Part shown: positions 22,907-64,000 of the stretch, one piece after another
Layout: each line of letters starts with the position of its first letter
Position numbering within the stretch: position 1 is the first letter of the stretch
Origin: Naegleria gruberi
Lineage: Eukaryota
Length of the DNA: 64,000 bases
NCBI GenBank assembly: GCA_000004985.1
Contig: GG738889.1
Strand: one strand, 5' to 3'
The notes under the pieces: model-generated
Told to the model about the DNA's origin: nothing
The model's input: the letters and a program-made list of their open reading frames with translations, nothing else
Databases searched by the model: none
Position numbers and translations under genes: made by a program

Positions 22907-24520
22907 TTAACACACTCTACTATCTAAATACCTATCAGGAATATAACAATCCATGTAGCAACTACTCATTCTAATTTGTCTTAATTCTTTTAAGAAATTC
23001 TCACCAAATAAAATTCTGTAAACTTGATTTTCTTCTCTGTATGGGTAAGGAATGATGAACCCATTCTGCTTGACAGCTTCTATAATCATCTCTGCATTGA
23101 ATTTCCATCTGTTGGAACAGAACATGAGTGCCAATCCATTCTGTCTAATTGCAGATAATGCCAATTCCCTATCTGAAGGTTTAATAAAAGGTTTCAGATA
23201 GCATAGAGAGAAGCCGTTCAGTTTTACCAGTGTATGAATAAACTCTCTATCTGAAAATACATTATCAGGTGCCTGACCAATCACTGATGGATTAATCTTG
23301 ATAGATTCACACAGAATATCTACATCACTCTTCAAAGTTTCCGATAATTGAGAATAAAGGTTTAAAATTTGATCTGGATGCTCCTGCTTCAAAGCCTGAA
23401 TAACAAACTCCTTATTTTCTTGAAGTTTCTGTGGGAACTCTTGGAATACCTTATTATTTTGTTTCAGTACTTTTAAAGCAAATTCAATGTCTCCTTTCAT
23501 TTGACCTGTTATAAACTTTAAGTTTTGAGTATCTCTATAAAGAACCTTTGAATCATTATGCAATCTCATATTTGGTGATTTCTCTTGGTTAGCAATTGAT
23601 TCGGAATATTGTTGAATTTCTGGATTTAATTCCAATAATTCTGTAGAAGCATACTCAATGGCACATGAATTTTGCTTGATAGCTTGTTTTACAATTTGTA
23701 TATTTGATTTCATTCGTTCAGATGCATAACCAAGAGCAAGCCCATTGCTGTTAATGGCTAGTTTCACTAATTCTTCATCATCATTAAAGTGGGCCACATA
23801 TCTCAAGCTTAATCCATTTTGACAGATGGCAAGTTTGACAATATCAATATCTCCTTTGAACTCTTCATTCAAATATTCCAAAACCATTCCATTTACACTA
23901 ACCACTTTTTTAATAAATTGGTAATCCTTTTTCAAGACTTCTGATGCAAATCTAAATGCAAATGTCATTTGTCTTGTGGCTTCTAAAACAATTTCTTCAT
24001 CTGATTGCATTGAAGGAGCATGGGAAAGAGCAATGCCTATCTGCTTTACAGCTTCCAAAACAATTCTTCTATCATTTCTCAATTCCAGAGGAATTTCACT
24101 AATCATTAATCCATTTTGTTTGACTGCTGACAGGGCAACATCTCTGTCATTTCTCAATTCTTCAGAGGCAAACGTCAGAGCAAATCCGCCCTGCTGACAA
24201 GCTTTCATTACAATTTCCTTATCATTCTTCCAAGAAGGAACTAAACTCAAATATTCTCTATAAACTGAAGTGTCCTTATCAACAATTGACAGGACAGTTT
24301 CTCTATTCTCAATAAATTCAATTGGAATATACAAGTGACTTCTATTGTAATGACTACTCTTCCAATTTCTTATGTGTTTATGATAGATTTCTCTATTGGT
24401 GAACCACTTTACAAAACCCTTGCTTTGCAATTGAAGTTTTGTAGTGAGAAGTGTTTGCAACGAATTGCATTCATTGAAATCAATTAACTCAATGATAACC
24501 TGTTGTTCTGCATGATGCAT
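22907..24520 (-). CDS. DUF4116-type repeat protein, 537 aa, built of tandem ~30-aa repeats of the form ...EIVL.AVKQNG.AL.YAS.ELRND...
   Basis: ATG at 24520. At least 8 repeats are visible, for example DRDVALSAVKQNGLMISEIPLELRND, RRIVLEAVKQIGIALSHAP, DIVKLAICQNGLSLRYVAH, IQIVKQAIKQNSCAIEYAS, RELALSAIRQNGLALMFCS and EMIIEAVKQNGFII. Confidence 0.6.
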   Translation of the reverse strand: MHHAEQQVIIELIDFNECNSLQTLLTTKLQLQSKGFVKWFTNREIYHKHIRNWKSSHYNRSHLYIPIEFIENRETVLSIVDKDTSVYREYLSLVPSWKNDKEIVMKACQQGGFALTFASEELRNDRDVALSAVKQNGLMISEIPLELRNDRRIVLEAVKQIGIALSHAPSMQSDEEIVLEATRQMTFAFRFASEVLKKDYQFIKKVVSVNGMVLEYLNEEFKGDIDIVKLAICQNGLSLRYVAHFNDDEELVKLAINSNGLALGYASERMKSNIQIVKQAIKQNSCAIEYASTELLELNPEIQQYSESIANQEKSPNMRLHNDSKVLYRDTQNLKFITGQMKGDIEFALKVLKQNNKVFQEFPQKLQENKEFVIQALKQEHPDQILNLYSQLSETLKSDVDILCESIKINPSVIGQAPDNVFSDREFIHTLVKLNGFSLCYLKPFIKPSDRELALSAIRQNGLALMFCSNRWKFNAEMIIEAVKQNGFIIPYPYREENQVYRILFGENFLKELRQIRMSSCYMDCYIPDRYLDSRVC

Positions 24521-26132: not shown

Positions 26133-27680
26133 TTAAAGGGCTATACTGCCATTTTCATCCAATGTTTCGAAATATCCGCTAGAGTTTGCTGGTCTTGTAT
26201 ACATATCACATTTAGTTTGTTTGATTACTTTCATGGTTTCTCTGAAAAAGTTCTTGGCTCTTGTCTTGACAATCTTGTGTACTATAAAGTTTGGAAGCGA
26301 CCCTCTAAGATCTGTACCAATTAATTCAATATATTTACAATGCTCTTTTCCATCTACCATGACAGGCATGAAAATCCAAGCACCAATATCCAGGGCCTTA
26401 ATTGCATCCTTCTCCGACAATTTGTAATTTGGTGGTTCACAAGATTTCTTTGCGACAATGTACAACTTGTCAGTAGTGTCATAAACCATAGATTGAGCCA
26501 AAACATAGTACCTATTCTTAACAGGCCACACCAATTTGTAGACCTCATGGGTGAGAACAGTTGCCAATCTTGTCTTGCCAGAAAGTTTGTTCAAAGAAAG
26601 GAGGGAATCTGATGAGGCACTATGATTACTATGTGTACTATGTGGTGAGGCTGGTGGTGAATGGTTGAGTGATGACAGGGACTCACTACTCTTGTATTTT
26701 TTTGGAGGTGATGAAAGTAAATCTCCTCCAGACTTATTCAGATACCCCACAATTTTGATACTATCCAAATTCTTATCAGATGCCAATCTAATTGTAGTAT
26801 TTGTCATAATATTCATCATTTGTTCCACAGTATAAGGGAAAATGACTTGAGATTTGGCAAAGTAAATACCCTTCTTACTTTCTTCCTCTCCCAGAATGTA
26901 CTTGTTCGATGATAAAAATGCAAAACAAGTATCCTTACTATAGATGCAATCCCAGAACTTTTCTTCCAATACATGTTGTTTGATCATTTTGATTTGGTCA
27001 ACTGTAATTTCACAACTCTTCATATCCATCAATGATTCCACAAAACAGCTGTGGGAGAGATTTCTTACAGTACCAATTTGGTTCAAGAATTGTTTGCTCT
27101 TCTTGCAAACAAATTGTTTGAATGTGTCAGATTCCAAAAACATTGGAAAGACGTGTTCTTTCATATTGACTAGAATATAGCTCTCTGCTTTCTTAAGCGC
27201 TTCTTCACATTCTTGAAGATCAGAACTGTCAATATTCACCTGTTGAAGAGTTGAGTTACTGGCATTTGAAGAATTTGTTGGTGTTTTTAGAGTAATCTTG
27301 TCGTTCAGATCCATAAAGCTCTGTTCCATAACTTCCCTTGATCTTTGAGGTAAATTCAACTCGTGAACAGAATTACCACTGAAAAAAGTAATGAAAATTT
27401 GTTGCAACGCATTCCACTTATTGGCAGCAGATCGCTTTCTATAATACTCGTTAACTTGATCTAGAAACATTATACTCTCCTCGCAATGAATAATTTTCAT
27501 GAACTGCAGCAAGGCTTGTTTAGTTTCTGGTTCGTCCAGAAATGCTTCATATGAAAAACAATAATCTCTCAACGAGAGTAATAGTTTCTGTTGTTCAGTT
27601 GTGTATGTAGAGAGAGGAATGTTCGTGGTAGTAGCCGAGAAGGATTTATCAACAGCCAAGGTTGATGTTGTTGCACTCAT
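26133..27680 (-). CDS. RGS-domain protein with a C-terminal START-like domain, about 516 aa.
   Basis: The track ORF starts at a TTG at 27794. The first in-frame ATG is 27680..27678 (MSATTSTLAV). RGS-like block: LSLRDYCFSYEAFLDEPETKQALLQFMKIIHCEESIMFLDQVNEYY...WNALQQIFITFF. The C-terminal region (...YVLAQSMVYDTTDKLYIVAKKSCEPPNYK...GSLPNFIVHKIVKTRAKNFFRETMKVI) resembles a START lipid-binding fold. Confidence 0.6.
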   Translation of the reverse strand: MSATTSTLAVDKSFSATTTNIPLSTYTTEQQKLLLSLRDYCFSYEAFLDEPETKQALLQFMKIIHCEESIMFLDQVNEYYRKRSAANKWNALQQIFITFFSGNSVHELNLPQRSREVMEQSFMDLNDKITLKTPTNSSNASNSTLQQVNIDSSDLQECEEALKKAESYILVNMKEHVFPMFLESDTFKQFVCKKSKQFLNQIGTVRNLSHSCFVESLMDMKSCEITVDQIKMIKQHVLEEKFWDCIYSKDTCFAFLSSNKYILGEEESKKGIYFAKSQVIFPYTVEQMMNIMTNTTIRLASDKNLDSIKIVGYLNKSGGDLLSSPPKKYKSSESLSSLNHSPPASPHSTHSNHSASSDSLLSLNKLSGKTRLATVLTHEVYKLVWPVKNRYYVLAQSMVYDTTDKLYIVAKKSCEPPNYKLSEKDAIKALDIGAWIFMPVMVDGKEHCKYIELIGTDLRGSLPNFIVHKIVKTRAKNFFRETMKVIKQTKCDMYTRPANSSGYFETLDENGSIAL

Positions 27681-29563
27681 GATTAGTTGTTGGTTGAGTA
27701 CTGACGTTTTTTTGATATGATGAAATTGACTTGAAATAGTCCTTACTTTGAGAATCTGCCAGGCGCAAAATCCAACTCTATAGACGTTAGACAAAGTATT
27801 ATTTGGGATTCGTATGGAAAATGTTCTTTCAACACTTTTCTCTTTTCGTTTCCTAATCCTTTAGAATAACAAGCTGTTGGCAAGGAAAGTTCTTTTTGAG
27901 TAGGTGGTCAAACCCGTACGTTGAAAACCTTTCAATTTTTGATTTTTCTCAATCTGTCAAAGAGATACTAGTCTCCTTTGGTTTTCTTATCTTGCAACAA
28001 CTGTTGAGAAAAATTAATGTCGTGTTGATGAAAAATCACCGCCCAGAAATGTTGTCGTTTTTTTGTTGTGAAGATTCCTCTAACACACGCTGTCAGCACC
28101 TATCGGCAACTATCACGAACAAATTAAAATATTATAATTCAAACCTGAGCAGTGCCGGTGTTTAACACCATCCTTGCCAAAGTCCTTAAAGCCTTTTACT
28201 AAAAAGCCTGCATACAAAAAATTTGCTTTCCTTACTCGAACACTCGTTGGGCATCATCAGTGATTTCGCTCCTTTTTTTTTTAAAGTTGGACATGACGAA
28301 GTTGGTGAGCGGGAAAGTGTTTCTGTTTGAGAAAAAGATGCGGTGCATCTATTTTACAAATGTCATCAACACTTGGACATATTGGTATGATGAAGTCAGT
28401 TATTCTTATTAGTGAGTGTTTTTCACACTTTCAACATATTGAGATGATTTCTTGTATTCTGAGAAATGAAACATTTACATGAAATTGTTGGGAGTGGAGA
28501 AAGGTCAGAAGTCAAAATAGGTTTTGAATCATTTGAATCATTCCCTGAGAGAGTCACATTCCTTACCAGCCTTATTTCTTCTTCGACAATAAAATTCCTT
28601 GATCATATCCTTATCAAACTCTGATTCGTAAATATTCACATCTGATAATAATGTCAATTTCTTATCCAAATTGATTTTCCAAGAAATAGACAAGCTGAAA
28701 CTGTATGAAAAAGCAGCAGAAACTACTCCATAAAACTGAAAACCCTGTTTTGGGCAAGAAATAATTAATTCTGATGGAATAATTAAAGATAAAATACAAT
28801 TATCAAAAATTGAGAAATGTAAGGCATTATTGGTTCGTAACGTGTGATATTTGAGATTTCTACTCACACGATTATTGCATGATCCATGAAATAATATTAA
28901 ATCTCCATGCTTCCCAGCACTCGGGTCAAGGTAATAAATTACTCTCAAATAAAACATGATCACATCCAAATTCTAGGAATATTCTGATCACCTCATTGGT
29001 AACAGTAGTCATTGATTGAAATAATAAGCTTGTTCACTAGAAGCCAGTGTCTAATCTCCGAAGAAGAAGAGAAGACTGAGTAGTGATTGCCCTCCATCAT
29101 TGTCCGTTACATTAATACAACTTGAAAAAAAATAGAAATGATTTGTGCTCCTGCATCATCTCTCTCAATGCTGAACTTATCTTCACATTAATGGAATTTA
29201 CTAATATTAGTTAGTTTCCGAATACTTATTAAAAAGTCTAGAAGTGTGTTCTTCCTATTTCATGCATGAAACCTCATAATCCTTCAATTCTATCACTACC
29301 CGATATCAAGAAAGCTTCTGATGAGCAGTGATGGAACATATTCATCATCTGATCAAGTTTTGGCAATTCAACATTTCAAAACAGTAGAGAGAGGTTCAAT
29401 GAAATTACGTTTCCATCCATTCTCCTACCATGTCCAGTAATATCATTGGCCATTACTCGGAAGACATCAAACATTGTAATTTTAAAATGTGAGAGTGTCC
29501 AATGAAACTCTCAGATTGTACAATGAACCACAAAAACAACAAGAAAAAAGGTTTCATCATCAT

Positions 29564-32500
29564 ATGAGTACGAATCCATACCTTCTGCCCACTTCTTCTA
29601 CAAGTATGTTTTCATTAGGAGAGGTAGCATCAAGTAGTCAGAATGTACTTGCAGAACAATCATCATCACACTATTCGATGGGAGCAACTGGGAATGAGTA
29701 TAATCCCTCAAAAGCTGGTACCATGTCTCATACTGGCTCTGAAAGTATTAAAAGTGCTGATACACTATCAACAACAAGTGAGGGAGGAATTAGAGGTCAA
29801 ACCAAATTGCTAATTACCACAACTTTGGTCAGTTTGCAAGATAGCTCACCAAAGAAAGGATGGCGATGCTATGTTTCCTATCTATTGGTTTTTATATACA
29901 TGTTTTGGTGTCAGGTGTTTGTACCTACGTTGGGAAATTATGGTTGGGGAGAGTATGGAACCTATGTATTGATTCATGTTCTCAATTTTCCAAATACCTT
30001 TCTGGTTCATCTCATTCCATTCTATGGATATTTGGCCATCACTATTGCAACTATATTATTTGTATTAACCATGGCAGTTTTGTATATTGTGGGAGTAAGG
30101 TTGGCAACGAAACCAAACAAGCATTTTAACAAGTTCAAGGTTTTGGTTTACTATCTCAGTTTCTTTGTCAAGACTTTCTCTCTCCCTATTGTATATATTT
30201 TGGTTGGTTTATTGGATTGTAATTCTATTGCCTATGATGTAGATGGTGATCCAATCCCTTCTTTGAGAAGATATAGCTCACAATCTTGTACAGACGATTT
30301 GAATATTATCATGATGATTATATCAGTAATTTCCCTTTTGATACTGTTACCTGTTTATTTCTTTTCAGAATCTATAACGGCAAATTCCAATCCACACAAT
30401 AGAACTCCACTGATGGTTGAAAGTTCTTTTCCAACTTCAATTATTGGAGTAATTTCATTGATACAACTAATTATTGGCCAACTGATACCAAGCAATTACA
30501 TGTACATATCTGCTGCCTTACAATTATTACTCAGTGTGATAGCAACCATTATTGCTGGTTATTCACTTCCTTGTTTCAGAATAATTGATAATTCTCTTTA
30601 TTTTGGTATGAATTTGGCTAAAGTAGGAGCAAGTATTGGATCCGTGGTGGCGTCCTCTCTTAATACTGCAAATATATTGAATACATCAGATCCAACACTG
30701 GGCTGGTCTCTCATGACCTTGGGATTGATGATTCTATTCTTTGTTATTGGAGTGGCTATTTTGGAAGTTTTCCAAAGAATTCAACTGAAAAGAGCTAGAA
30801 GTTTTATACTGAACTGGGTTCAACAAGATGAAACAGCTATTAACTCTGATCCTATTTCTCCACTCATTCTCATAGAAAAGAATGCCATGAATATATATGG
30901 CGATGCAGAAGATGCCAAGCTGTTGGGTCTATTGAGACACATGTTCAAGTGTTCCATTCTAGAGGCAAGGGATGCCAAAGGCACTTCATACACTAATAGT
31001 GACTTGTCTTCAGCATTTGTGAAGGGAGCAGCTAGTCACAACTCATTCAATGACCTCAAGTTATTGATTTATTCGTCAATATTATTGGAGACTAAATGGA
31101 ATGAAAGCAATAATACTGTCTTTTCTCTCAACCTACTCAAACGTGCAATGAAACAACATCCAAATGGATTAGAGCAAATTACTATACGGGAGAGAATTAA
31201 GCAAGTTGAGAACTTTTCTCAAACCAACTTTAAGAATTTAACCAATTTTGAATTGAGCTCTCAACTCGACTTGCTAGAAAAGAATCAAAACATTCTTCTA
31301 ACTTTGCACAGAAACTTTTGGAAGGAGTTGGCATCTGAAAAGATCAATTATGATTCTGTTGAAAAAATCAATCGTGCCATTCATTCTCTCACTATTGATT
31401 GTAGGACAACACTTCAAAATTTAATGTACAACCACAAAAATAACAAGACAATTTACAGATTATATGCCAATTTCATTGAAAGTTTTGAGTTTGACAGCGA
31501 CTTGGCCCAACAATACTATAACGAAGCCAATTCTATTGAAGAGGAGGAAATGAAAAGAAAGAGAAGAATGTCAACCTTTAGTAATAATGGAAAGAGAGGT
31601 GGTAATCGTGTTGTTCCTGTCATGAATGAATACAAATTTGGAAATGCAGAGGCAGTTGAAGATCAAGATTTAGATGAGATGGAAAGTGCCTTTGATAATC
31701 CAAAGGTAAAAAAGGAGCAAGTTTTCAAAACAGCCATCTCAAATCAAAGATCCAATAGATTCGTATTCACATCAACTCTATTATATGGCTTGCTATGTTT
31801 CAGTTTTATCACTGCATCGTTAGTACTTAGTGTTTATTACTCTAAAACTTCCAAGAACAATATTCCTTACTTGCAACAGGTTTGCGCAGTTAGTGTAGCT
31901 CCATTCTCAGTATTTAGAAATGTCAGGGCTGGTCAGAACTGGATGAACTTTTACATGCTTTTTGAAAATGTTTGGCCAGCTATTAATCCTGAATCAAATA
32001 CCAAAACAAGATCAAAATCAAGCTATGTCACAAGTCACAAACAAAGAATGTTAGACGATTTGGCTTATTATGATACTCTCGTTTCTACAGCTCAAAGTAA
32101 GATATTCGATAGTGACTCATATATCGACTATTCAGAAAATGTTTATCCATTTGCATACCCAAATGAAGACAAACAGTTTAACTATAATGGAGCTTTAACT
32201 ATTAGAAATATTTCAGTTCAAGAAATTACCAATAATATGATCAAGTACACTAAGAAATTCTACGCAGACGTACCAGACACATATTTATTGGCCTCTGAAG
32301 CTATTAATATCACATATGCCAAGAAGAAACTCAATCTTGACTTGGCAGCAAATTCTACCTATTTTAATCCATTGGCAAACTATAATTTTATGGTTTTGTA
32401 TAGTAATATTGAGAGAGCTAGTAATGCCTATGATGCATTTTGTGGAAAATATCTCGATAGATCAACAAGTACAATTAATGATACCATCAATCTTTTGATC

Positions 32501-34915
32501 TATTATACTGTTACATTGGTTGGTTTCTTCCTATTGTCAAGCTTTGCCTATCTGATATTTATGCTTGTTGAAATGACTTCAATGAAGAGAATAATGAAAC
32601 TCTATGAGAAGCAATTGAGCAAAGATGTTATTGGAAAGATCTATCATACCTTAGATAAGAAGACAACAGAAGTTGCTGATTCTCAATCTAAAGGTATTTC
32701 TCTTAATAGAATCAAACCAAGTGTCATACTTATTGGCTTGATTTTACTTATCATTCTAGTTACAGTAACCTGTTTGGTTTTATTATTTGTTGAAAGTTAT
32801 GAAAATTCAATTACATCATCACAGGTGATGGCAAGTGTAAGATTGACAGTTCAAGCAGCTGCTATTTTGCAAAGATTATCGTTTGCAGTTGGAGAAGTAG
32901 CTACATACTTTGTTGCTAGTGAGACTTCCAATACCAAATCACCTCTAGCCAGTTCTTTCCCTAGAAAGGTAACCTTTGGAGATCCAAGTTTATATGGAAT
33001 AGATATTGCAAGTTTACAAGCATTTTTAGTGGCACGTATAAACACAAGACTTCCTCAATTGAGTAGTATGTGGTCAAAATTAATTTATGGAGATGCAGCA
33101 TCTGGAAGAGAAGCTATTCTTGGTAAATTTGATGATGTTGATCAAGTAATTGTGACTGGAATTACTAATTGCACAGATTATATGGCCAAAAACAATATTA
33201 CATATGGCCTTGAAACTAGTTATCAGTATTGTGTTGGATTTGAAGAATTATTTGGTAATTATTTGACAACTGTTGCTCAGCTCGTTACAGATTCAAAGAA
33301 ACAGTATGCACTTCAACAAGCTGCCCTTAGCACTACAACTCTTCTTCCAACGGATGATTTACAATTGAGACATAACAATGCTATGAGAATGGCTTTATCC
33401 TTAACAAGCAAATTTGTGAAATTTATTCAAGAATTTGTGGATGCAACCTCTAGTGCTTCCTACATTATTGCAATCATTAGTACAATTATCAGCTACTTGC
33501 TATGTACAGTCTTCTTCTTTTTCCTTCAGAGTACTTATCAATCTTATGATGGTCAATTACACACTTTGAGAATAATGGCTCACTACATTCCAGTTGATGT
33601 TCTTGATAGAAATGAACAATTGAAGAACTTTATTCTATACAATACTACCAAGACAGAAAAGAAGAAGAAATCTCTGCTCTCTAAGGAAGGCTTTGTTGGA
33701 GGTTCCTCTCTTGAAGATTTGAAGAATATTTTCAATTCCAACATTGAGGGAACCACAATTTGTAATAGCAAGTTTGAAATTGAATTTTTCAATGCAGCTG
33801 CCCTCAAAATGTTTGGTATGCAATCAATTGATGTGTTGGGAGTTTCTATGGGAAATTTGATTGAGCCAACACAAAAAGATGAGCTCATTAATTGTATGGA
33901 TCATTTAATGAAGAAAAAGACAGGTGAAAATAACCTAAAGAAGGATGAAATTCAAACTAATGATCAATGCGAAGTTTTAGAATTAGACTGCATCAGAAGA
34001 AATCAAACAAAATTCCCATGCAAAATAACTTTAATTGCTGTTAAGGTTAGTGATGGAATAGGTCAAAAGCCAATCCTAATCGTCAGTCTTAAAGATTTAA
34101 CATCTGAAAAGAAACAAAATGCACTATTGAGTGAAGAGAAACAAAAATCAGACAATTTACTGAAAAACATATTACCAATGAGTGTTGCTTCGAGATTAAA
34201 GAGTGGACACACTTTCATTGCTGAAAAGTTGGATGATATCACTTGTTTCTTCTCAGATATGGTTGGATTTACTGCAATCAGTAGTGGACTTCAAGCAACT
34301 GACCTTGTGATGATGTTAAACTCTATTGTTAATGGATTTGATTTACTAACAGAGAAGTATGATTTGGAGAAGATCAAAACTATTGGAGATGCATACTTTT
34401 GTGTAGGAGGACTTCCAGGTGCAGCAACAAGTGATCATCCAGAACGAGTTCTCAAATTTGCTATTGAAACATTTGGTGTCATTAACGATTTCAATGCCAA
34501 TAATGCTGAAAGGAAATCGGTGACTGATAATCAAGAAGAATATCAACCAACTGAAGAACAGTCATCGCCTATCAAGGCAAAGATCAATATTCGAGTTGGA
34601 ATTAACACAGGAGCAGTTGTGGCAGGTGTTATTGGAATGAAAAAGTTTGCCTACGACTTGTGGGGTGATACAATCAATACTGCATCTCGTATGGAATCAA
34701 CATCAAAGAATGGAAGAATTCAAATTTCACGATCAACCTATGAAAGAGTTTTCGATTTGGGTTATGAATTTGAGGAAAGAGAAGTAGATGTGAAAGGAAA
34801 AGGAATTGTCAAGACTTATCTATTGAATGATAAGCATCATAGATATCTCAAAAACAATCCACTAATGTATTCAGCACAGAAGAGTGCTTCTTTGTTATTC
34901 ACTTCCCAACAATAA
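29564..34915 (+). CDS. Polytopic sensor-type class III nucleotidyl (probably adenylyl) cyclase, about 1783 aa. Order: N-terminal ~8-TM domain, cytoplasmic helical region, two TM helices bracketing a ~260-aa N-glycosylation-rich extracellular domain, more TM helices, PAS domain, coiled coil, C-terminal cyclase catalytic domain.
   Basis: One uninterrupted ORF. The track start at 29489 is GTG; the first in-frame ATG is 29564 (MSTNPY). Hydrophobic helices are at aa ~120-440 and again FVFTSTLLYGLLCFSFITASLVLSVYY, LLIYYTVTLVGFFLLSSFAYLIFMLV, VILIGLILLIILVTVTCLVLLFV and YIIAIISTIISYLLCTVFFFFL. PAS-like segment: GTTICNSKFEIEFFNAAALKMFGMQSIDVLGVSMGNLIEP. Catalytic core: FSDMVGFT...LEKIKTIGDAYFCVGGLP...YDLWGDTINTASRME. 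It has both metal-binding Asp residues, plus Lys (EKIKTIGD) and Asp (YDLWG) at the purine-specifying positions. Confidence 0.8.
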   Translation: MSTNPYLLPTSSTSMFSLGEVASSSQNVLAEQSSSHYSMGATGNEYNPSKAGTMSHTGSESIKSADTLSTTSEGGIRGQTKLLITTTLVSLQDSSPKKGWRCYVSYLLVFIYMFWCQVFVPTLGNYGWGEYGTYVLIHVLNFPNTFLVHLIPFYGYLAITIATILFVLTMAVLYIVGVRLATKPNKHFNKFKVLVYYLSFFVKTFSLPIVYILVGLLDCNSIAYDVDGDPIPSLRRYSSQSCTDDLNIIMMIISVISLLILLPVYFFSESITANSNPHNRTPLMVESSFPTSIIGVISLIQLIIGQLIPSNYMYISAALQLLLSVIATIIAGYSLPCFRIIDNSLYFGMNLAKVGASIGSVVASSLNTANILNTSDPTLGWSLMTLGLMILFFVIGVAILEVFQRIQLKRARSFILNWVQQDETAINSDPISPLILIEKNAMNIYGDAEDAKLLGLLRHMFKCSILEARDAKGTSYTNSDLSSAFVKGAASHNSFNDLKLLIYSSILLETKWNESNNTVFSLNLLKRAMKQHPNGLEQITIRERIKQVENFSQTNFKNLTNFELSSQLDLLEKNQNILLTLHRNFWKELASEKINYDSVEKINRAIHSLTIDCRTTLQNLMYNHKNNKTIYRLYANFIESFEFDSDLAQQYYNEANSIEEEEMKRKRRMSTFSNNGKRGGNRVVPVMNEYKFGNAEAVEDQDLDEMESAFDNPKVKKEQVFKTAISNQRSNRFVFTSTLLYGLLCFSFITASLVLSVYYSKTSKNNIPYLQQVCAVSVAPFSVFRNVRAGQNWMNFYMLFENVWPAINPESNTKTRSKSSYVTSHKQRMLDDLAYYDTLVSTAQSKIFDSDSYIDYSENVYPFAYPNEDKQFNYNGALTIRNISVQEITNNMIKYTKKFYADVPDTYLLASEAINITYAKKKLNLDLAANSTYFNPLANYNFMVLYSNIERASNAYDAFCGKYLDRSTSTINDTINLLIYYTVTLVGFFLLSSFAYLIFMLVEMTSMKRIMKLYEKQLSKDVIGKIYHTLDKKTTEVADSQSKGISLNRIKPSVILIGLILLIILVTVTCLVLLFVESYENSITSSQVMASVRLTVQAAAILQRLSFAVGEVATYFVASETSNTKSPLASSFPRKVTFGDPSLYGIDIASLQAFLVARINTRLPQLSSMWSKLIYGDAASGREAILGKFDDVDQVIVTGITNCTDYMAKNNITYGLETSYQYCVGFEELFGNYLTTVAQLVTDSKKQYALQQAALSTTTLLPTDDLQLRHNNAMRMALSLTSKFVKFIQEFVDATSSASYIIAIISTIISYLLCTVFFFFLQSTYQSYDGQLHTLRIMAHYIPVDVLDRNEQLKNFILYNTTKTEKKKKSLLSKEGFVGGSSLEDLKNIFNSNIEGTTICNSKFEIEFFNAAALKMFGMQSIDVLGVSMGNLIEPTQKDELINCMDHLMKKKTGENNLKKDEIQTNDQCEVLELDCIRRNQTKFPCKITLIAVKVSDGIGQKPILIVSLKDLTSEKKQNALLSEEKQKSDNLLKNILPMSVASRLKSGHTFIAEKLDDITCFFSDMVGFTAISSGLQATDLVMMLNSIVNGFDLLTEKYDLEKIKTIGDAYFCVGGLPGAATSDHPERVLKFAIETFGVINDFNANNAERKSVTDNQEEYQPTEEQSSPIKAKINIRVGINTGAVVAGVIGMKKFAYDLWGDTINTASRMESTSKNGRIQISRSTYERVFDLGYEFEEREVDVKGKGIVKTYLLNDKHHRYLKNNPLMYSAQKSASLLFTSQQ

Positions 34916-41394: not shown

Positions 41395-42906
41395 ATGTGG
41401 AACATTCTTTGCATTGCTATTTTGGTGGTTCTTTGTTCTGCTGGTTACTTTTATTTTAATATGAACAATACTCAACAGTATAATGACTTGGACATTTATG
41501 TTCCCATAGAATACATTCTTTTCTGTATATCGGAACAATACCAGATCGCCAACACCTCCTTATTGGAACCTCTCATCCGAAAAAACTTCAATAAGGATAA
41601 TATTAAGACACTATTGAATATGCTCACCAAACATAACAAAATAGATGTCGTAAATAACTTGGTGAACACCTTTAGAATAAGAGCTGATATTGCCGAGAAT
41701 ATTGTTGACTTTATTGGCCATCAAGCGAAGCAAGCATTTCCATTTTCAAAAGAGAGAATGGACGAGTTTCTATGGAGAAAAGCCAAAATACGAGATGCAC
41801 TATCAAGTATTGAAGATATTACAACTGATCACGAGCATGTTAACAATAGTGACACGTTTATTTACAAAGTTAATGATGGAAATTGGTACATTTTCAATAA
41901 TCTTTCAAAATTTAAGAAAGCAATTCATCATATACCTTTAGTATTGGGATCTGCCCAGAGATGTAGAATGTCTTTTGAAGTTAAGGGTCAGCCTAGAACA
42001 GGAAAAACACTTTGTTCGAAATATGTGCTTCCCTATTTTTGTGCCACTTCAATTAATCGAAAGAGGGAACAAGAAGGCCTTACAAAACTGTCAAGAGCTC
42101 CTGTTTTCTATTTAATGATGGTAAAGAATGGAAATCCAATCAGGGATTTGTATCACGAACTGAAGAAACATTTAAGTGAAATAATTAACTACCATCCAGA
42201 ACATGAATTTAAAGAAAATGGTGAGCTTATTCTGGAAGTACGAACGTATATTCACAGATTTTTCGATGTGTATTCTGACTCTCATATGTTTATTGTTCTA
42301 GATGAGATTCAATTAATTGATTCAAAATATTTGGACTCTCTGAGAACAATTATCAAGTCAAGAGACTTTCTCAAGTGTACATTCATTCTAACAGGCTCTA
42401 CCCAGTCAATGTTCAACTTGACAATGGAAAAGACATGTAGAAATGGATTGAGTTTCTTTGACAATACAATTGTTTATGATATTCCCTTTTCCAATTCACC
42501 AAAACGTGTTGAAGAATCTCTTAAAACATTGTTTCATAAGGGTGCTTTGAATAGAAGTTCTATAACAGCAGAAGAAACCCTTATGATACAATCACATTGC
42601 ACAGATCTAAACGTTGCGTATGTAAGCCAGATACTGAAATATGAGCACGATTTAAAACTTTCTTTCACTAAATCTTTGAATAAGTTAGTAGAAGAAATAT
42701 TGAAAATATACGACCGAGATGTTGTAATTGATTCAGCCACAGTCTTAGCTATACTAAATGGTGATCTTGAATCTTTGGAAGATACATGCTTTGTTACTAA
42801 AGTTAAAGGACAATTACTTTTAACAGACAAGCTTTTCACCATATTTCTTAACAACAATTTTATGGTTGAGAATCAAGGAAAAGCAGTTATTAAGAAATGC
42901 TTCTGA
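41395..42906 (+). CDS. Membrane-anchored P-loop NTPase (AAA-like), 503 aa.
   Basis: ATG start, with an N-terminal TM segment (ILCIAILVVLCSAGYFYF). Walker A: GQPRTGKT. Walker B-like: MFIVLDEIQLI. Confidence 0.55.
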   Translation: MWNILCIAILVVLCSAGYFYFNMNNTQQYNDLDIYVPIEYILFCISEQYQIANTSLLEPLIRKNFNKDNIKTLLNMLTKHNKIDVVNNLVNTFRIRADIAENIVDFIGHQAKQAFPFSKERMDEFLWRKAKIRDALSSIEDITTDHEHVNNSDTFIYKVNDGNWYIFNNLSKFKKAIHHIPLVLGSAQRCRMSFEVKGQPRTGKTLCSKYVLPYFCATSINRKREQEGLTKLSRAPVFYLMMVKNGNPIRDLYHELKKHLSEIINYHPEHEFKENGELILEVRTYIHRFFDVYSDSHMFIVLDEIQLIDSKYLDSLRTIIKSRDFLKCTFILTGSTQSMFNLTMEKTCRNGLSFFDNTIVYDIPFSNSPKRVEESLKTLFHKGALNRSSITAEETLMIQSHCTDLNVAYVSQILKYEHDLKLSFTKSLNKLVEEILKIYDRDVVIDSATVLAILNGDLESLEDTCFVTKVKGQLLLTDKLFTIFLNNNFMVENQGKAVIKKCF

Positions 42907-60063: not shown

Positions 60064-60088
60064 TGTATAATAGTCTGATCTACTTGTG

Positions 60089-62870
60089 NNNNNNNNNNNN
60101 NNNNNNNNNNNNNNNNNNNNNNNNNNNNNNNNNNNNNNNNNNNNNNNNNNNNNNNNNNNNNNNNNNNNNNNNNNNNNNNNNNNNNNNNNNNNNNNNNNNN
60201 NNNNNNNNNNNNNNNNNNNNNNNNNNNNNNNNNNNNNNNNNNNNNNNNNNNNNNNNNNNNNNNNNNNNNNNNNNNNNNNNNNNNNNNNNNNNNNNNNNNN
60301 NNNNNNNNNNNNNNNNNNNNNNNNNNNNNNNNNNNNNNNNNNNNNNNNNNNNNNNNNNNNNNNNNNNNNNNNNNNNNNNNNNNNNNNNNNNNNNNNNNNN
60401 NNNNNNNNNNNNNNNNNNNNNNNNNNNNNNNNNNNNNNNNNNNNNNNNNNNNNNNNNNNNNNNNNNNNNNNNNNNNNNNNNNNNNNNNNNNNNNNNNNNN
60501 NNNNNNNNNNNNNNNNNNNNNNNNNNNNNNNNNNNNNNNNNNNNNNNNNNNNNNNNNNNNNNNNNNNNNNNNNNNNNNNNNNNNNNNNNNNNNNNNNNNN
60601 NNNNNNNNNNNNNNNNNNNNNNNNNNNNNNNNNNNNNNNNNNNNNNNNNNNNNNNNNNNNNNNNNNNNNNNNNNNNNNNNNNNNNNNNNNNNNNNNNNNN
60701 NNNNNNNNNNNNNNNNNNNNNNNNNNNNNNNNNNNNNNNNNNNNNNNNNNNNNNNNNNNNNNNNNNNNNNNNNNNNNNNNNNNNNNNNNNNNNNNNNNNN
60801 NNNNNNNNNNNNNNNNNNNNNNNNNNNNNNNNNNNNNNNNNNNNNNNNNNNNNNNNNNNNNNNNNNNNNNNNNNNNNNNNNNNNNNNNNNNNNNNNNNNN
60901 NNNNNNNNNNNNNNNNNNNNNNNNNNNNNNNNNNNNNNNNNNNNNNNNNNNNNNNNNNNNNNNNNNNNNNNNNNNNNNNNNNNNNNNNNNNNNNNNNNNN
61001 NNNNNNNNNNNNNNNNNNNNNNNNNNNNNNNNNNNNNNNNNNNNNNNNNNNNNNNNNNNNNNNNNNNNNNNNNNNNNNNNNNNNNNNNNNNNNNNNNNNN
61101 NNNNNNNNNNNNNNNNNNNNNNNNNNNNNNNNNNNNNNNNNNNNNNNNNNNNNNNNNNNNNNNNNNNNNNNNNNNNNNNNNNNNNNNNNNNNNNNNNNNN
61201 NNNNNNNNNNNNNNNNNNNNNNNNNNNNNNNNNNNNNNNNNNNNNNNNNNNNNNNNNNNNNNNNNNNNNNNNNNNNNNNNNNNNNNNNNNNNNNNNNNNN
61301 NNNNNNNNNNNNNNNNNNNNNNNNNNNNNNNNNNNNNNNNNNNNNNNNNNNNNNNNNNNNNNNNNNNNNNNNNNNNNNNNNNNNNNNNNNNNNNNNNNNN
61401 NNNNNNNNNNNNNNNNNNNNNNNNNNNNNNNNNNNNNNNNNNNNNNNNNNNNNNNNNNNNNNNNNNNNNNNNNNNNNNNNNNNNNNNNNNNNNNNNNNNN
61501 NNNNNNNNNNNNNNNNNNNNNNNNNNNNNNNNNNNNNNNNNNNNNNNNNNNNNNNNNNNNNNNNNNNNNNNNNNNNNNNNNNNNNNNNNNNNNNNNNNNN
61601 NNNNNNNNNNNNNNNNNNNNNNNNNNNNNNNNNNNNNNNNNNNNNNNNNNNNNNNNNNNNNNNNNNNNNNNNNNNNNNNNNNNNNNNNNNNNNNNNNNNN
61701 NNNNNNNNNNNNNNNNNNNNNNNNNNNNNNNNNNNNNNNNNNNNNNNNNNNNNNNNNNNNNNNNNNNNNNNNNNNNNNNNNNNNNNNNNNNNNNNNNNNN
61801 NNNNNNNNNNNNNNNNNNNNNNNNNNNNNNNNNNNNNNNNNNNNNNNNNNNNNNNNNNNNNNNNNNNNNNNNNNNNNNNNNNNNNNNNNNNNNNNNNNNN
61901 NNNNNNNNNNNNNNNNNNNNNNNNNNNNNNNNNNNNNNNNNNNNNNNNNNNNNNNNNNNNNNNNNNNNNNNNNNNNNNNNNNNNNNNNNNNNNNNNNNNN
62001 NNNNNNNNNNNNNNNNNNNNNNNNNNNNNNNNNNNNNNNNNNNNNNNNNNNNNNNNNNNNNNNNNNNNNNNNNNNNNNNNNNNNNNNNNNNNNNNNNNNN
62101 NNNNNNNNNNNNNNNNNNNNNNNNNNNNNNNNNNNNNNNNNNNNNNNNNNNNNNNNNNNNNNNNNNNNNNNNNNNNNNNNNNNNNNNNNNNNNNNNNNNN
62201 NNNNNNNNNNNNNNNNNNNNNNNNNNNNNNNNNNNNNNNNNNNNNNNNNNNNNNNNNNNNNNNNNNNNNNNNNNNNNNNNNNNNNNNNNNNNNNNNNNNN
62301 NNNNNNNNNNNNNNNNNNNNNNNNNNNNNNNNNNNNNNNNNNNNNNNNNNNNNNNNNNNNNNNNNNNNNNNNNNNNNNNNNNNNNNNNNNNNNNNNNNNN
62401 NNNNNNNNNNNNNNNNNNNNNNNNNNNNNNNNNNNNNNNNNNNNNNNNNNNNNNNNNNNNNNNNNNNNNNNNNNNNNNNNNNNNNNNNNNNNNNNNNNNN
62501 NNNNNNNNNNNNNNNNNNNNNNNNNNNNNNNNNNNNNNNNNNNNNNNNNNNNNNNNNNNNNNNNNNNNNNNNNNNNNNNNNNNNNNNNNNNNNNNNNNNN
62601 NNNNNNNNNNNNNNNNNNNNNNNNNNNNNNNNNNNNNNNNNNNNNNNNNNNNNNNNNNNNNNNNNNNNNNNNNNNNNNNNNNNNNNNNNNNNNNNNNNNN
62701 NNNNNNNNNNNNNNNNNNNNNNNNNNNNNNNNNNNNNNNNNNNNNNNNNNNNNNNNNNNNNNNNNNNNNNNNNNNNNNNNNNNNNNNNNNNNNNNNNNNN
62801 NNNNNNNNNNNNNNNNNNNNNNNNNNNNNNNNNNNNNNNNNNNNNNNNNNNNNNNNNNNNNNNNNNNNNN
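60089..62870. other. Assembly gap (2782 N) between the last gene and the subtelomere.
   Basis: Run of N characters. Confidence 1.
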
Positions 62871-63566
62871 GATTGAAGTGATGTATTTGATAGAGTTGAT
62901 CTGACCTGTCTTTCTCTAAAGTCAACCATAATATTTCAACATTTACCTTCCCATGGTACCATTTCTGATTTTTATGATATGAAATTGAATTCTACATCAT
63001 TATATATCATCTACATCATGTTGGTAAAGTTTCAATAGGTGGTCCTTTTTCAAGATTTCCACCTTTTCATCATAGTTGACCATATGATGGTTGAGGGAAG
63101 AAATCTTTAAATATGAAAGTTAAAATAAATTTGATATTCGATGTTTACTCATCAAATGGAACATTTTCATGTCAGGATTCAATATGTTTTGATGAGAAAC
63201 TAAAAAGTTATTGTTGACCTCTTGTACTTCACAACTTCCCTTTTCACTTCATACTTTTATACCTACAGACATGAACCTTTGAAATTTCATATGAAAGTGA
63301 TTATAAATGTTGTTAATGATGATATAAACTATATAATCTCATTAAAGGATTTCGAAATTATTATTCTTCCTATGGTTTCATTTATGAAATTTTAATCTGA
63401 CTCTATTTAAAAAGTTAATATTTTATAAATTGAAAAACTAAATATACCACATTGTTCTACTCATCATTAGCTATCGAATGATATAAAATTTAATGATATT
63501 TGAATAAGTTTATAATTTTGGGTTAGGGTTTGAACGTTGGGTTTAGAAGAATTCTATTTTTAGGTT
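62871..63566. other. AT-rich, ORF-free subtelomeric sequence. It ends in a degenerate telomere-like transition (TTGGGTTAGGGTTTGAACGTTGGGTTTAGAAG...TAGGTTTTGGG).
   Basis: No ORF of 60 aa or more. Contains a 10-bp inverted repeat ACTCATCAAA...TTTGATGAGA at 63140-63200. Telomere-like variant units, including a TTAGGG-type unit GGGTTA, start at about 63517. Confidence 0.7.
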
Positions 63567-64000
63567 TTGGGTTTGGGTTTGGGTTTGGGTTTGGGTTTGG
63601 GTTTGGGTTTGGGTTTGGGTTTGGGTTTGGGTTTGGGTTTGGGTTTGGGTTTGGGTTTGGGTTTGGGTTTGGGTTTGGGTTTGGGTTTGGGTTTGGGTTT
63701 GGGTTTGGGTTTGGGTTTGGGTTTGGGTTTGGGTTTGGGTTTGGGTTTGGGTTTGGGTTTGGGTTTGGGTTTGGGTTTGGGTTTGGGTTTGGGTTTGGGT
63801 TTGGGTTTGGGTTTGGGTTTGGGTTTGGGTTTGGGTTTGGGTTTGGGTTTGGGTTTGGGTTTGGGTTTGGGTTTGGGTTTGGGTTTGGGTTTGGGTTTGG
63901 GTTTGGGTTGGGTTTGGGTTTGGGTTTGGGTTTGGGTTTGGGTTTGGGTTTGGGTTTGGGTTTGGGTTTGGGTTTGGGTTTGGGTTTGGGTTTGGGTTGG
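63567..64000 (+). repeat. Telomeric repeat array (TTTGGG)n of about 72 units. The G-rich strand runs 5'->3' toward the window end.
   Basis: Perfect GGGTTT hexamer tandem array from 63567 to the window end. One 5-mer variant (GGGTT) lies at about 63905. It is preceded by a degenerate transition and sits at a scaffold end after the gap. Confidence 0.85.

What the first reader, a model, noticed from the sequence alone, without database searches (positions are those of the whole stretch)
29564..34915. Unusual receptor-type adenylyl cyclase: polytopic N-domain, TM-bracketed ectodomain, PAS, and a single class III catalytic domain
The topology resembles a transporter-like module fused to a sensor-kinase-like input (two TM helices around a periplasm-like domain, then PAS) driving a homodimer-type class III cyclase. 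It is 1783 aa in one exon. About 8 N-terminal TM helices are followed by a ~330-aa soluble region. Two TM helices then flank a ~260-aa domain full of N-x-S/T sequons (NISVQE, NITYAKK, NSTYF, NDTINLL), so it is presumably extracellular. More TM helices, a PAS fold and the catalytic core follow. The catalytic domain has both metal Asp residues (FSDMVGFT, IGDAYF) plus Lys (EKIKTIGD) and Asp (YDLWG) at the positions that specify ATP over GTP in class III cyclases. This is neither the 12-TM pseudo-heterodimeric animal/ACA type nor the soluble fungal Cyr1 type (LRR plus PP2C). It may be a ligand- or light/redox-gated cAMP source.
Basis: partly seen in the sequence, partly recalled or inferred. Interest (0 to 1): 0.75.

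Follow-up and report, generated by a model that had tools for sequence, protein, structure and literature searches.

The report
Naegleria 12-TM receptor-type adenylyl cyclase
This is a real, intact gene of the amoeba Naegleria gruberi for a large membrane-bound cAMP-making enzyme; its uncharacterised sensor half (a TmcB-like membrane block plus two outward-facing helical domains) is shared by dozens of paralogues, so it belongs to an undescribed receptor family, not a one-off.

Summary
Window 29564..34915 (+) is one uninterrupted 1783-codon ORF, 100% identical to a Naegleria gruberi "predicted protein". Pfam finds Guanylate_cyc (7e-52), PAS_9 (3e-14) and TPR_TmcB (4e-13). All six canonical class III catalytic residues lie in a single domain, including the adenine-specifying Lys1605 and Asp1698. 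It is therefore a homodimer-type adenylyl cyclase.

- There are two TM-bracketed ~225-aa ectodomains, not one, giving 8+4 = 12 TM helices.
- Sequon density equals chance. The outside location rests on conserved Cys pairs, two conserved sequons and the positive-inside rule.
- The N-terminal block matches no solved transporter or channel fold. Together with the TPR it forms a "TmcB-like" module that also occurs in green algae.
- The PAS domain has no LOV motif and no conserved His or Cys, so light or haem gating is unsupported.
- The ectodomains are confidently predicted all-helical bundles (pLDDT 91). They match no Pfam family and no specific solved fold.

The architecture is shared by at least 30 protein clusters in Naegleria, Willaertia and Acrasis. 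Among paralogues the cyclase is ~64% identical and the ectodomains ~19%, the pattern of a diversified receptor family.

Verdict: new variant of a known kind. The gene is already deposited, but the family is undescribed.

The parts
29564..34915 (+). Complete single-exon gene of 1783 aa plus stop, encoding the receptor-type adenylyl cyclase
   Evidence: ORF list and translation. 100% identical to the N. gruberi predicted protein P0001.
29564..29860 (+). N-terminal Ser/Thr-rich tail (aa 1-99), predicted cytosolic. It is the least conserved part.
   Evidence: No hydrophobic segment. A KK pair lies just before TM1. Paralogues are 17% identical here.
29861..30763 (+). Polytopic block (aa 100-400). 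It has 8 TM helices plus one non-hydrophobic conserved helix (aa 129-145, NFP/NYP motif). An outward loop (aa 215-244) carries the conserved Cys219/Cys242 pair.
   Evidence: Hydropathy. AlphaFold model with pLDDT 86. Family hydropathy of helix 2 is 0.22. Each Cys is conserved in 41/46 sequences. No solved fold matches. The block is homologous to the N-terminal block of algal TmcB-type proteins.
30764..31777 (+). Cytosolic all-helical region (aa 401-738) containing TPR_TmcB (Pfam PF25474; aa 561-663 = nt 31244..31552)
   Evidence: Pfam E 4.1e-13, 49.8 bits against a cut-off of 27. The model is helical. Four K/R residues lie directly after TM9.
31778..32566 (+). TM10 (aa 739-757), ectodomain 1 (aa 758-982) and TM11 (aa 983-1001). 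The ectodomain is a helical bundle with a small beta hairpin. It has an invariant Cys774/Cys960 pair and a conserved sequon at N882.
32567..32722 (+). Short basic cytosolic loop (aa 1002-1053) with the family motif KDxIGKIYHxLxKK
   Evidence: 11 K/R in 52 aa. Consensus motif from the family alignment. Conservation is relatively high at 27%.
32723..33520 (+). TM12 (aa 1054-1072), ectodomain 2 (aa 1073-1300) and TM13 (aa 1301-1319). This is a second helical bundle, with a conserved Cys1203/Cys1223 pair and a conserved NCT sequon at N1202.
   Evidence: Model. Cys conserved 28/36 and 32/35; sequon 31/36. Profile-profile similarity to ectodomain 1 is weak and colinear (hhalign probability 53%).
33713..34102 (+). 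Cytosolic PAS domain (aa 1384-1513), cofactor or ligand unknown
   Evidence: PAS_9 E 3e-14. TIGR00229 at 23.4 bits. No LOV motif and no conserved His/Cys.
34103..34219 (+). Signalling helix / cyclase-transducer-element-like linker (aa 1514-1552; EKKQ..LL.EEK..S..LLKNILP..VA.RLK)
   Evidence: Matches the C-terminal end of HNOBA. Aligns to the helix preceding AC9 C2. Weak hit to the sGC coiled coil 3hls. Paralogues are 66% identical here.
34220..34828 (+). Single class III (IIIa-like) catalytic domain (aa 1553-1755). Key residues are D1565, K1605, D1609, R1677, D1698, N1705 and R1709. A ~35-aa insertion lies at about aa 1644-1680.
   Evidence: Guanylate_cyc E 7.4e-52. Alignments to AC9, AC8, AC5 and mycobacterial Cya. 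Motif conservation. Residue numbering.

Best explanation
The gene encodes a catalytically competent, homodimer-type class IIIa adenylyl cyclase built as a 12-TM receptor.

**Order of parts**
1. Cytosolic N-tail.
2. 8-TM block.
3. Cytosolic TPR_TmcB region.
4. TM10, helical ectodomain 1, TM11.
5. Short basic cytosolic loop.
6. TM12, helical ectodomain 2, TM13.
7. Cytosolic PAS domain.
8. Signalling helix.
9. Cyclase domain.

**Shown**
- The domain content.
- The complete catalytic residue set with the ATP-type Lys/Asp pair.
- The membrane topology, as far as sequence evidence can show it.
- The confident all-helical ectodomain model.
- Family membership and the conservation gradient.

**Inferred**
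- Two chains dimerise through the signalling helices and catalytic domains, forming two symmetric active sites.
- The two disulfide-stabilised helical ectodomains, whose helices are continuous with the TM helices, bind an extracellular ligand or sense a physical cue.
- The resulting helix displacement passes through TM13, the PAS domain and the signalling helix to the catalytic dimer, in the manner of a bacterial chemoreceptor or sensor kinase.
- The PAS domain relays the signal or adds a second, intracellular input.
- The TmcB-like 8-TM/TPR module is a conserved regulatory or scaffolding unit of unknown ligand.
- Because the paralogues keep the output and vary the ectodomains, the family probably acts as a diversified repertoire of cAMP-generating environmental receptors in heterolobosean amoebae.
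For: - **Gene:** ORF and identity to the deposited protein.
- **Domains:** Pfam domains.
- **Catalytic residues:** they align with AC9 C1 (metal Asp) and C2 (Lys, Asp, Asn, Arg). FSDMVGFT, KIKTIGDAY and YDLWGDTINxASR are conserved in 29 family representatives.
- **Subclass:** the best solved relatives are class IIIa enzymes: AC9, AC8, AC5, mycobacterial Cya/Rv1625c and the ANP receptor.
- **Topology:**
  - The positive-inside pattern holds. There are 4 K/R after TM9, 4 after TM11 and 3 before TM12, and 0 on the ectodomain-side flanks of TM11 and TM12.
  - Each of the three predicted outside loops has one Cys pair conserved in 78-100% of members. Among the other (TM and cytosolic) Cys, five are found in at most 15% of members, while C613 (TPR region) and C1070 (TM12) are moderately conserved (29/40 and 19/40).
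  - Only the ectodomain sequons N882 and N1202 are conserved.
  - Helix 2 is not hydrophobic, which gives 8+4 TM helices and places both the N-terminus and the TPR inside.
- **Family:** 133 representatives, 56 below 1e-30. More than 30 have the full ntm-TPR-ecto1-ecto2-PAS-cyclase order. They occur in N. gruberi, N. lovaniensis, N. fowleri, Willaertia and Acrasis.
- **Conservation gradient among 24 paralogues:** cyclase 64%, signalling helix 66%, PAS 35%, TPR 28%, 8-TM block 25%, ectodomains 18-20%.
Against: - There is no experimental datum for this protein or any paralogue.
- Topology rests on sequence rules and conservation, not on a dedicated predictor or an experiment. The 'outside' could equally be the lumen of an organelle.
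- Neither the ectodomains nor the PAS domain has an identifiable ligand site.
- The role of the 8-TM/TPR module is unknown. It could be the real sensing or transport element, with the ectodomains being structural.
- The ~35-aa insertion in the catalytic domain is untested for its effect on dimerisation.
Confidence: 0.6

Rival explanations
1. The N-terminal 8-TM block is a channel or transporter, and the protein is a transport-coupled cyclase. In this view cAMP synthesis reports on or is gated by ion or solute flux, as in the K+-channel/adenylyl-cyclase fusions of Paramecium and Plasmodium and the P4-ATPase/guanylyl-cyclase fusions of apicomplexans. The ectodomains would be accessory.
For: - The block is polytopic and conserved, with polar or small-residue motifs in membrane helices: NYPxT in helix 2 and PFxRRxENS...GxSIGxLISS around TM8 (consensus).
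- It is conserved as a unit with the TPR from Heterolobosea to green algae, so it has a function of its own.
- Fusions of membrane-transport proteins to cyclases are an established protist theme (PMC6592433; Paramecium case from general knowledge).
Against: - No Pfam or NCBIfam transporter family matches.
- There is no P-loop, ATPase or selectivity-filter-like signature.
Confidence: 0.15
2. The PAS domain is the primary sensor, for oxygen or redox through haem or flavin, or for light. The membrane part would serve mainly to localise and dimerise the enzyme.
For: - A genuine PAS domain sits directly upstream of the signalling helix and cyclase. In many bacterial PAS-cyclases and PAS-kinases this position is the sensory one.
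- The closest solved PAS sequences, although insignificant, are the haem sensors EcDOS/DosP and FixL (E 0.06-0.9).
- Naegleria is known to use photoactivated BLUF cyclases (PMC9928731).
Against: - There is no LOV GxNCRFLQ motif.
- No His or Cys is conserved in the PAS core across 40 family PAS domains.
- The similarity to haem-PAS proteins covers only the generic N-terminal strands.
- The PAS domain is intermediate in conservation (35%), while the ectodomains diverge most. That pattern fits variable external inputs feeding a common relay.
Confidence: 0.15
3. It is a guanylyl cyclase or a dual-specificity cyclase, or a catalytically dead paralogue in an over-expanded family.
For: - The Pfam family PF00211 covers both adenylyl and guanylyl cyclases.
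- Paralogues are annotated 'adenylate/guanylate cyclase'.
- The domain scores well against the ANP receptor guanylyl cyclase (2.4e-40).
- An unusual ~35-aa insertion lies within the domain.
Against: - The substrate-specifying positions are Lys1605 and Asp1698, the adenylyl type. They align to AC9 C2 IKTIG and YDIWG and not to the Glu/Cys of guanylyl cyclases (the rule is established class III knowledge).
- All metal-binding and transition-state residues are present and conserved in the family.
- Cyclase identity among paralogues is 64%, which indicates purifying selection.
Confidence: 0.05

Closest known systems
Mycobacterial Rv1625c/Cya-type membrane adenylyl cyclases (6 TM plus one class IIIa domain, homodimer)
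   Same: - Single class IIIa catalytic domain with all six canonical residues, obligately homodimeric.
- A helical transducer element lies between the membrane part and the catalytic domain.
- It is among the best solved sequence relatives (5o5k, 7yz9, 4p2f; E 1e-44 to 1e-42).
- The dimer would give 2 x polytopic membrane domains.
   Different: Rv1625c has 6 TM helices, no large ectodomains, no TPR and no PAS. The Naegleria protein has 8+4 TM helices, two ~225-aa ectodomains and cytosolic TPR_TmcB and PAS domains.
Dictyostelium ACG and trypanosomatid receptor-type adenylyl cyclases (ESAG4/GRESAG4 type)
   Same: They are protist receptor cyclases in which an extracellular domain is coupled through TM helices to a single homodimerising class III domain. 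In trypanosomatids they form large paralogue families (PMC10470820; ACG as osmosensor cited in PMC9928731).
   Different: ACG has a CHASE-type ectodomain between two TM helices. The trypanosome enzymes have one TM helix and a periplasmic-binding-protein-like ectodomain. Here no CHASE, Cache or PBP family matches. The ectodomains are two all-helical bundles, and there is an additional 8-TM/TPR module and a PAS domain.
Dictyostelium TmcB (tiny macrocysts protein B) and 'TmcB-related' proteins of green algae and chytrids
   Same: - They share the Pfam TPR_TmcB domain.
- The preceding polytopic block is also homologous in volvocine algal TmcB-type proteins, in the same order (1e-11 to 6e-10).
- The algal and chytrid proteins also carry a PAS domain after the TPR.
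- TmcB is described as a regulator of the cAMP pathway in Dictyostelium sexual development (PMC12750705, citing Muramoto et al. 2005).
   Different: The TmcB-type algal and chytrid proteins examined have no detectable cyclase domain and lack the 4-TM/two-ectodomain module. Dictyostelium TmcB itself could not be retrieved and compared here.
Bacterial helical-bundle sensor domains (4HB_MCP, HBM/PilJ, TorS, NIT of NasR)
   Different: Sequence identity is 4-12%. No Pfam family matches and Foldseek finds nothing significant. Designed helical bundles score similarly, so this is a fold-class resemblance and not demonstrated homology. The Naegleria protein also has two such domains in tandem in one chain, each with a conserved disulfide-type Cys pair.
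Animal transmembrane adenylyl cyclases (AC1-9; 12 TM, pseudo-heterodimeric C1/C2)
   Same: They are the best solved sequence relatives of the catalytic domain (AC9 E 5e-60). They belong to the same class IIIa, have the same transducer helix and also total 12 TM helices.
   Different: Animal enzymes have 6+6 TM helices and two complementary, degenerate catalytic halves forming one active site. Here the TM helices are arranged 8+4, and the single complete catalytic domain must homodimerise to give two active sites.

Membership tests
Class III nucleotide cyclase (Pfam PF00211) | Significant match to the catalytic-domain profile over its full length | tested here: met
   Guanylate_cyc E 7.4e-52, 176 bits (cut-off 21.9), profile positions 3-182 of 183.
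Class III nucleotide cyclase (Pfam PF00211) | Two metal-binding Asp plus transition-state Asn and Arg in one domain, giving homodimer competence | tested here: met
   D1565 and D1609 align with the AC9 C1 metal Asp. N1705 and R1709 align with AC9 C2 NxxxR. The residues are conserved in the family.
Adenylyl (not guanylyl) cyclase specificity | Lys and Asp at the two purine-specifying positions (Glu and Cys in guanylyl cyclases) | tested here: met
   K1605 in EKIKTIGD and D1698 in YDLWG align with AC9 C2 IKTIG and YDIWG. This is sequence-level only; no enzymatic assay was possible.
Class IIIa subclass with cyclase transducer element | A conserved helical segment directly N-terminal to the catalytic domain | tested here: met
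   aa 1517-1545 match the C-terminal end of HNOBA (E 0.01, below cut-off). The segment aligns to the helix before AC9 C2 and is 66% identical among paralogues.
PAS domain | Match above the curated threshold to a PAS profile | tested here: met
   PAS_9 at 53.6 bits against a cut-off of 27. TIGR00229 at 23.4 against 22.9.
LOV (light-sensing PAS) | GxNCRFLQ motif with the flavin-adduct Cys | tested here: not met
   The motif is absent from the query, and no Cys is conserved in the PAS core of 40 family members.
Haem-binding PAS (FixL/EcDOS type) | Significant similarity and a conserved proximal His in the F-alpha helix | tested here: not met
   The best hits, EcDOS and FixL, have E 0.06-0.9 and cover only the N-terminal strands. 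No His is conserved in the family. Cofactor binding itself cannot be tested here.
TmcB-like proteins (Pfam PF25474 TPR_TmcB) | Match above threshold to TPR_TmcB | tested here: met
   E 4.1e-13, 49.8 bits against a cut-off of 27, aa 561-663. It is found in 29 of 40 family members scanned.
TmcB-like proteins (Pfam PF25474 TPR_TmcB) | A polytopic membrane block preceding the TPR that is homologous to that of other TmcB-type proteins | tested here: met
   A profile of the heterolobosean N-block hits the algal TmcB-type proteins P0121, P0124 and P0134 at 1e-11, 7e-13 and 6e-10, colinear and upstream of their TPR_TmcB. Dictyostelium TmcB itself was not available.
   No such family reaches E <= 1 in the query or E <= 0.01 in any of 40 family members. 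The modelled ectodomains are all-helical with one hairpin, not a PAS-like alpha/beta fold.
NIT / four-helix-bundle bacterial sensor domains | Sequence-profile match or a specific structural match | tested here: inconclusive
Known transporter or channel folds (for the 8-TM block) | Structural or profile similarity to a solved transporter or channel | tested here: not met

The most novel reading that the evidence does not exclude
The heterolobosean 'TmcB-like / double helical ectodomain / PAS / cyclase' proteins may be a previously unrecognised class of eukaryotic chemoreceptors that turn extracellular ligand binding directly into cAMP. With dozens of ectodomain-diversified paralogues per genome, they would be a functional counterpart of bacterial MCP or sensor-kinase repertoires.

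The fusion would also work as a Rosetta stone. It implies that stand-alone TmcB-type proteins act by physically partnering with and regulating an adenylyl cyclase. These include Dictyostelium TmcB, a genetic regulator of cAMP signalling, and the ciliary 'TmcB-related' protein of Chlamydomonas.
Probability: 0.3. Interest if true: 0.75.

Novelty: new variant of a known kind. Interest (0 to 1): 0.5.

Why it matters
Naegleria genomes encode about 80-100 cyclases (PMC9928731), yet none of the membrane forms has a known stimulus. This locus defines a concrete, family-wide architecture with three features:
- a strongly conserved ATP-type catalytic output;
- two confidently modelled, disulfide-marked helical ectodomains that diverge between paralogues;
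- a TmcB-like membrane/TPR module.

If the ectodomains bind ligands, the family would be a major environmental-sensing system of heterolobosean amoebae, including the pathogen N. fowleri, where surface-exposed and parasite-specific receptors are of practical interest.

The fusion also yields a testable mechanistic hypothesis for Dictyostelium TmcB: it affects cAMP signalling by an unknown route.

The chimeric design (helical ectodomain, PAS, transducer helix, homodimeric cyclase) could be exploited for engineered cAMP sensors.

Tried and rejected
- **Word-index homology searches.** Searches with the full protein, with the N-terminal 1369 aa and with a 25-sequence family alignment returned only the protein itself plus unrelated cyclases. 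The family was found only by the exhaustive HMMER scan.
- **Ectodomain duplication.** BLASTP of ectodomain module 1 against module 2 showed no similarity. Profile-profile hhalign gave only 53% probability, so an internal duplication is possible but unproven.
- **PAS domain.** Searching it against PDB sequences gave only insignificant haem-PAS hits. LOV and haem readings were rejected on motif and conservation grounds.
- **Sequon enrichment.** Rejected as evidence for an outside location after shuffling.
- **Literature.** The Naegleria genome paper (Fritz-Laylin 2010) is not held. 'TmcB' searches were mostly acronym noise. No paper describing this architecture was found.
- **Weak TPR-only hits.** The last cluster look-up returned unnamed metagenome fragments and no Dictyostelium sequence.
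- **Neighbouring genes.** They show no functional linkage and no paralogue of the cyclase.
Full report

Window 29489..34915 (+) is a single open frame. The first ATG is at 29564, which gives 1783 aa plus a stop. The translation is 100% identical over its full length to a deposited "predicted protein" of Naegleria gruberi. That identifies the window as N. gruberi nuclear DNA (~35% G+C) and confirms the intron-less gene model. An uninterrupted reading frame of 1783 codons (1808 in the full open frame) in this composition cannot be chance.

**2. Domain content**

Pfam finds three families above threshold:

| Family | Residues | Score |
|---|---|---|
| Guanylate_cyc | 1553-1755 | E 7.4e-52 |
| PAS_9 | 1395-1513 | E 3e-14, 53.6 bits vs cut-off 27 |
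| TPR_TmcB (PF25474) | 561-663 | E 4.1e-13, 49.8 bits vs cut-off 27 |

- A sub-threshold match to the C-terminal end of HNOBA (1517-1545) marks the helical transducer in front of the catalytic domain.
- NCBIfam adds only the generic PAS "sensory box".
- No CHASE, Cache, MASE, NIT or 4HB family matches the query or any of 40 family members.

**3. Catalytic domain**

The best solved sequence relatives are class IIIa enzymes:
- AC9 (5e-60), AC8 and AC5;
- mycobacterial Cya/Rv1625c-type enzymes (1e-44 to 1e-42);
- ANP-receptor guanylyl cyclase (2.4e-40).

The printed alignments show two sets of matches. FSD(1565)MVGFT and IGD(1609)AYF align with the metal-binding Asp of AC9 C1. EKIK(1605)TIGD and YD(1698)LWGDTIN(1705)TASR(1709)M align with IKTIG and YDIWGDTVNIASRM of AC9 C2.

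By established class III rules, the Lys/Asp pair specifies adenine, the Asn/Arg pair stabilises the transition state, and guanylyl cyclases have Glu/Cys instead. This single domain therefore carries the complete residue set. It should form a symmetric homodimer with two ATP sites.

The same motifs are conserved in 29 family representatives. A ~35-aa insertion (about 1644-1680) is absent from AC9, and its effect is unknown. Substrate specificity remains a sequence-level inference.

**4. Topology**

Hydropathy gives seven strong TM segments in aa 100-400. Four further segments lie at 739-757, 983-1001, 1054-1072 and 1301-1319.

An AlphaFold model of aa 95-735, built on a 46-sequence family alignment (pLDDT 86, pTM 0.80), shows nine helices in the N-terminal block followed by an all-helical TPR region. 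Family-averaged hydropathy shows that helix 2 (aa 129-145, conserved NYPxT-like motif) is not hydrophobic (0.22). The other eight helices are (best-window 1.4-2.6). The count is therefore 8 + 4 = 12 TM helices, with the N-terminus and the TPR on the same side.

Three independent lines place the TPR, the 1002-1053 loop and the PAS-cyclase in the cytosol, and aa 215-244, 758-982 and 1073-1300 outside:
- **Positive-inside rule.** There are 4 K/R directly after TM9, 4 after TM11 and 3 before TM12, with 11 K/R in the 52-aa loop. The ectodomain-side flanks of TM11 and TM12 carry none. The family mean is 3.1 K/R in the TM3-TM4 loop.
- **Conserved Cys pairs.** Each predicted outside segment has exactly one pair.
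  - C219/C242: 41/46 each.
  - C774/C960: 34/34 and 37/37.
  - C1203/C1223: 28/36 and 32/35.
  - Of the other Cys, five are present in at most 15% of members; C613 (29/40) and C1070 (19/40) are exceptions.
- **Conserved sequons.** Of 15 N-x-S/T sequons, only N882 (30/37) and N1202 (31/36) are conserved, one in each ectodomain.

Ectodomain 1 has 4 sequons against 3.93 expected from shuffles (P = 0.58), and the cytosolic TPR region has 5. Three of the four quoted sequons are not conserved. "Outside" may mean extracellular or the lumen of an organelle; this cannot be decided here.

**5. The ectodomain module**

A model of aa 730-1330, built on a 40-sequence alignment, is very confident (pLDDT 91, pTM 0.86). 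It is almost entirely helical. The TM helices continue as long helices (up to ~69 residues) into two bundles, and ectodomain 1 has one small beta hairpin.

The structure searches gave the following:
- **Foldseek against the whole PDB** finds nothing at E <= 1e-3, with TM-scores <= 0.17.

My conclusion is that these are helical-bundle ectodomains of the general kind bacteria use as sensors, but no specific homologue or ligand can be assigned.

The two ectodomains are not similar by BLASTP. They are only marginally similar by profile-profile comparison (hhalign 53%, colinear). An ancient duplication is possible but unproven.

**6. The N-terminal module**

The block does belong together with the TPR_TmcB domain. 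A profile built only from heterolobosean sequences detects the N-terminal membrane block of volvocine-algal TmcB-type proteins, colinear and upstream of their TPR_TmcB domain:

| Protein | Organism | E-value |
|---|---|---|
| P0121 | Edaphochlamys | 1e-11 |
| P0124 | Pleodorina | 7e-13 |
| P0134 | Chlamydomonas schloesseri | 6e-10 |

In the alga (P0121) and the chytrid (P0135) scanned against Pfam, a PAS domain follows the TPR directly, and no cyclase or ectodomain module is detected.

[quoted passage not shown] 2005, Mech Dev 122:733; reference confirmed in PMC12929561). A Chlamydomonas "tiny macrocysts protein B-related" protein occurs in the ciliary methylome (PMC11244166).

The covalent fusion of a TmcB-like module to an adenylyl cyclase in Heterolobosea is therefore a suggestive Rosetta-stone link. 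I could not retrieve Dictyostelium TmcB itself to test the full-length relationship.

**7. The PAS domain**

It is genuine, but its ligand is unknown.
- There is no LOV GxNCRFLQ motif.
- No His or Cys is conserved in the PAS core across 40 family members.
- The nearest solved sequences (EcDOS/DosP, FixL) are insignificant (E 0.06-0.9) and align only to the generic N-terminal strands.

Light or haem gating is not supported. A relay role or binding of a small metabolite remains open.

**8. Family and distribution**

The exhaustive HMMER scan with aa 101-1300 found 133 cluster representatives, of which 56 score below 1e-30. Domain mapping shows that more than 30 representatives share the full order: N-block, TPR, ecto1, ecto2, PAS, cyclase. 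Named members come from the following organisms:
- N. gruberi (at least six distinct 50%-identity clusters among those sampled);
- N. lovaniensis;
- N. fowleri;
- Willaertia magna;
- Acrasis kona, where the member is annotated "adenylate cyclase".

Among 24 full-length paralogues, mean pairwise identity falls steadily from output to input:

| Region | Identity |
|---|---|
| Transducer helix | 66% |
| Cyclase | 64% |
| PAS | 35% |
| TPR | 28% |
| 8-TM block | 25% |
| Ectodomains | 18-20% |

A conserved output with divergent outward-facing domains is the signature of a receptor family with diversified inputs.

Published Naegleria genome analyses note 81 or more cyclases and treat membrane-bound cyclases as environmental sensors, without describing this architecture (PMC9928731). 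I found no paper that does.

**9. Mechanism (inferred)**

A homodimer would assemble through the transducer helices and catalytic domains. A ligand or physical stimulus acting on the helical ectodomains would shift TM12/TM13. The signal would then pass through the ~60-aa linker, the PAS domain and the transducer helix to the catalytic dimer. The 8-TM/TPR module would act as a conserved regulatory, scaffolding or additional sensing unit.

The rivals are weighed in their own section of this report: a transport-coupled cyclase, PAS as the primary sensor, and a guanylyl or dead enzyme.

**10. Verdict**

Several details are corrected:
- there are two ectodomains;
- the total is 12 TM helices;
- sequon density is uninformative;
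- the N-terminal block is not transporter-like by any test available;
- there is no evidence for light or redox sensing;
- the gene is one member of a large family.

The gene is already in public databases as an uncharacterised protein, and its three Pfam domains are precomputed there. It belongs to a well-known kind, protist receptor cyclases with exotic inputs. Its input architecture, however, is undescribed and structurally unassigned. I rate it a new variant of a known kind, of moderate interest.

Noticed in passing
window 63555..64000: A perfect tandem (TTTGGG)n array runs to the end of the window. It looks like a telomere-type repeat, so the window appears to be a scaffold or chromosome end, and the cyclase gene lies ~29 kb from it (subtelomeric).
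   Followed up: partly
window 60089..62871: A run of N (assembly gap). It explains the 1.8% G+C bin in the composition profile and the spurious ~930-956-aa 'ORFs' listed on both strands at 60055-62929.
   Followed up: yes
window 26133..27794 (-): The upstream neighbour encodes a 553-aa protein that combines an RGS domain (2.3e-12) with a START lipid-binding domain (4.6e-06). This is an unusual pairing of G-protein regulation with lipid or sterol binding.
   Followed up: no
window 22907..24520 (-): A 537-aa protein made of eight DUF4116 repeats (E 3.8e-100).
   Followed up: no
window 41395..42906 (+): A 503-aa ORF with an AAA_22 ATPase domain (1.2e-06). Several other long ORFs nearby have no Pfam match at all: 19711-20994, 21211-22536, 25111-26055, 37032-38036, 38832-40898 and 45522-47738.
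   Followed up: no
P0121, P0124, P0134 (volvocine algae) and P0135 (chytrid Dinochytrium), found: These are very long proteins (2400-3100 aa). The algal ones share the polytopic block, and all share the TPR_TmcB region; a PAS domain follows the TPR in the two scanned (P0121, P0135). No cyclase was detected in any of the four, and no recognisable domain in the remaining ~2000 residues of the two scanned against Pfam (P0121, P0135). P0135 has two TPR_TmcB copies. Their output function is unknown.
   Followed up: partly
window 32567..32722 (aa 1002-1053) and family alignment A2: The short cytosolic loop between the two ectodomain modules carries a strongly conserved basic motif (KLxxKxxxKDxIGKIYHxLxKK). 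It is better conserved than the flanking TM helices and ectodomains, which suggests a specific cytosolic interaction or gating site.
   Followed up: partly
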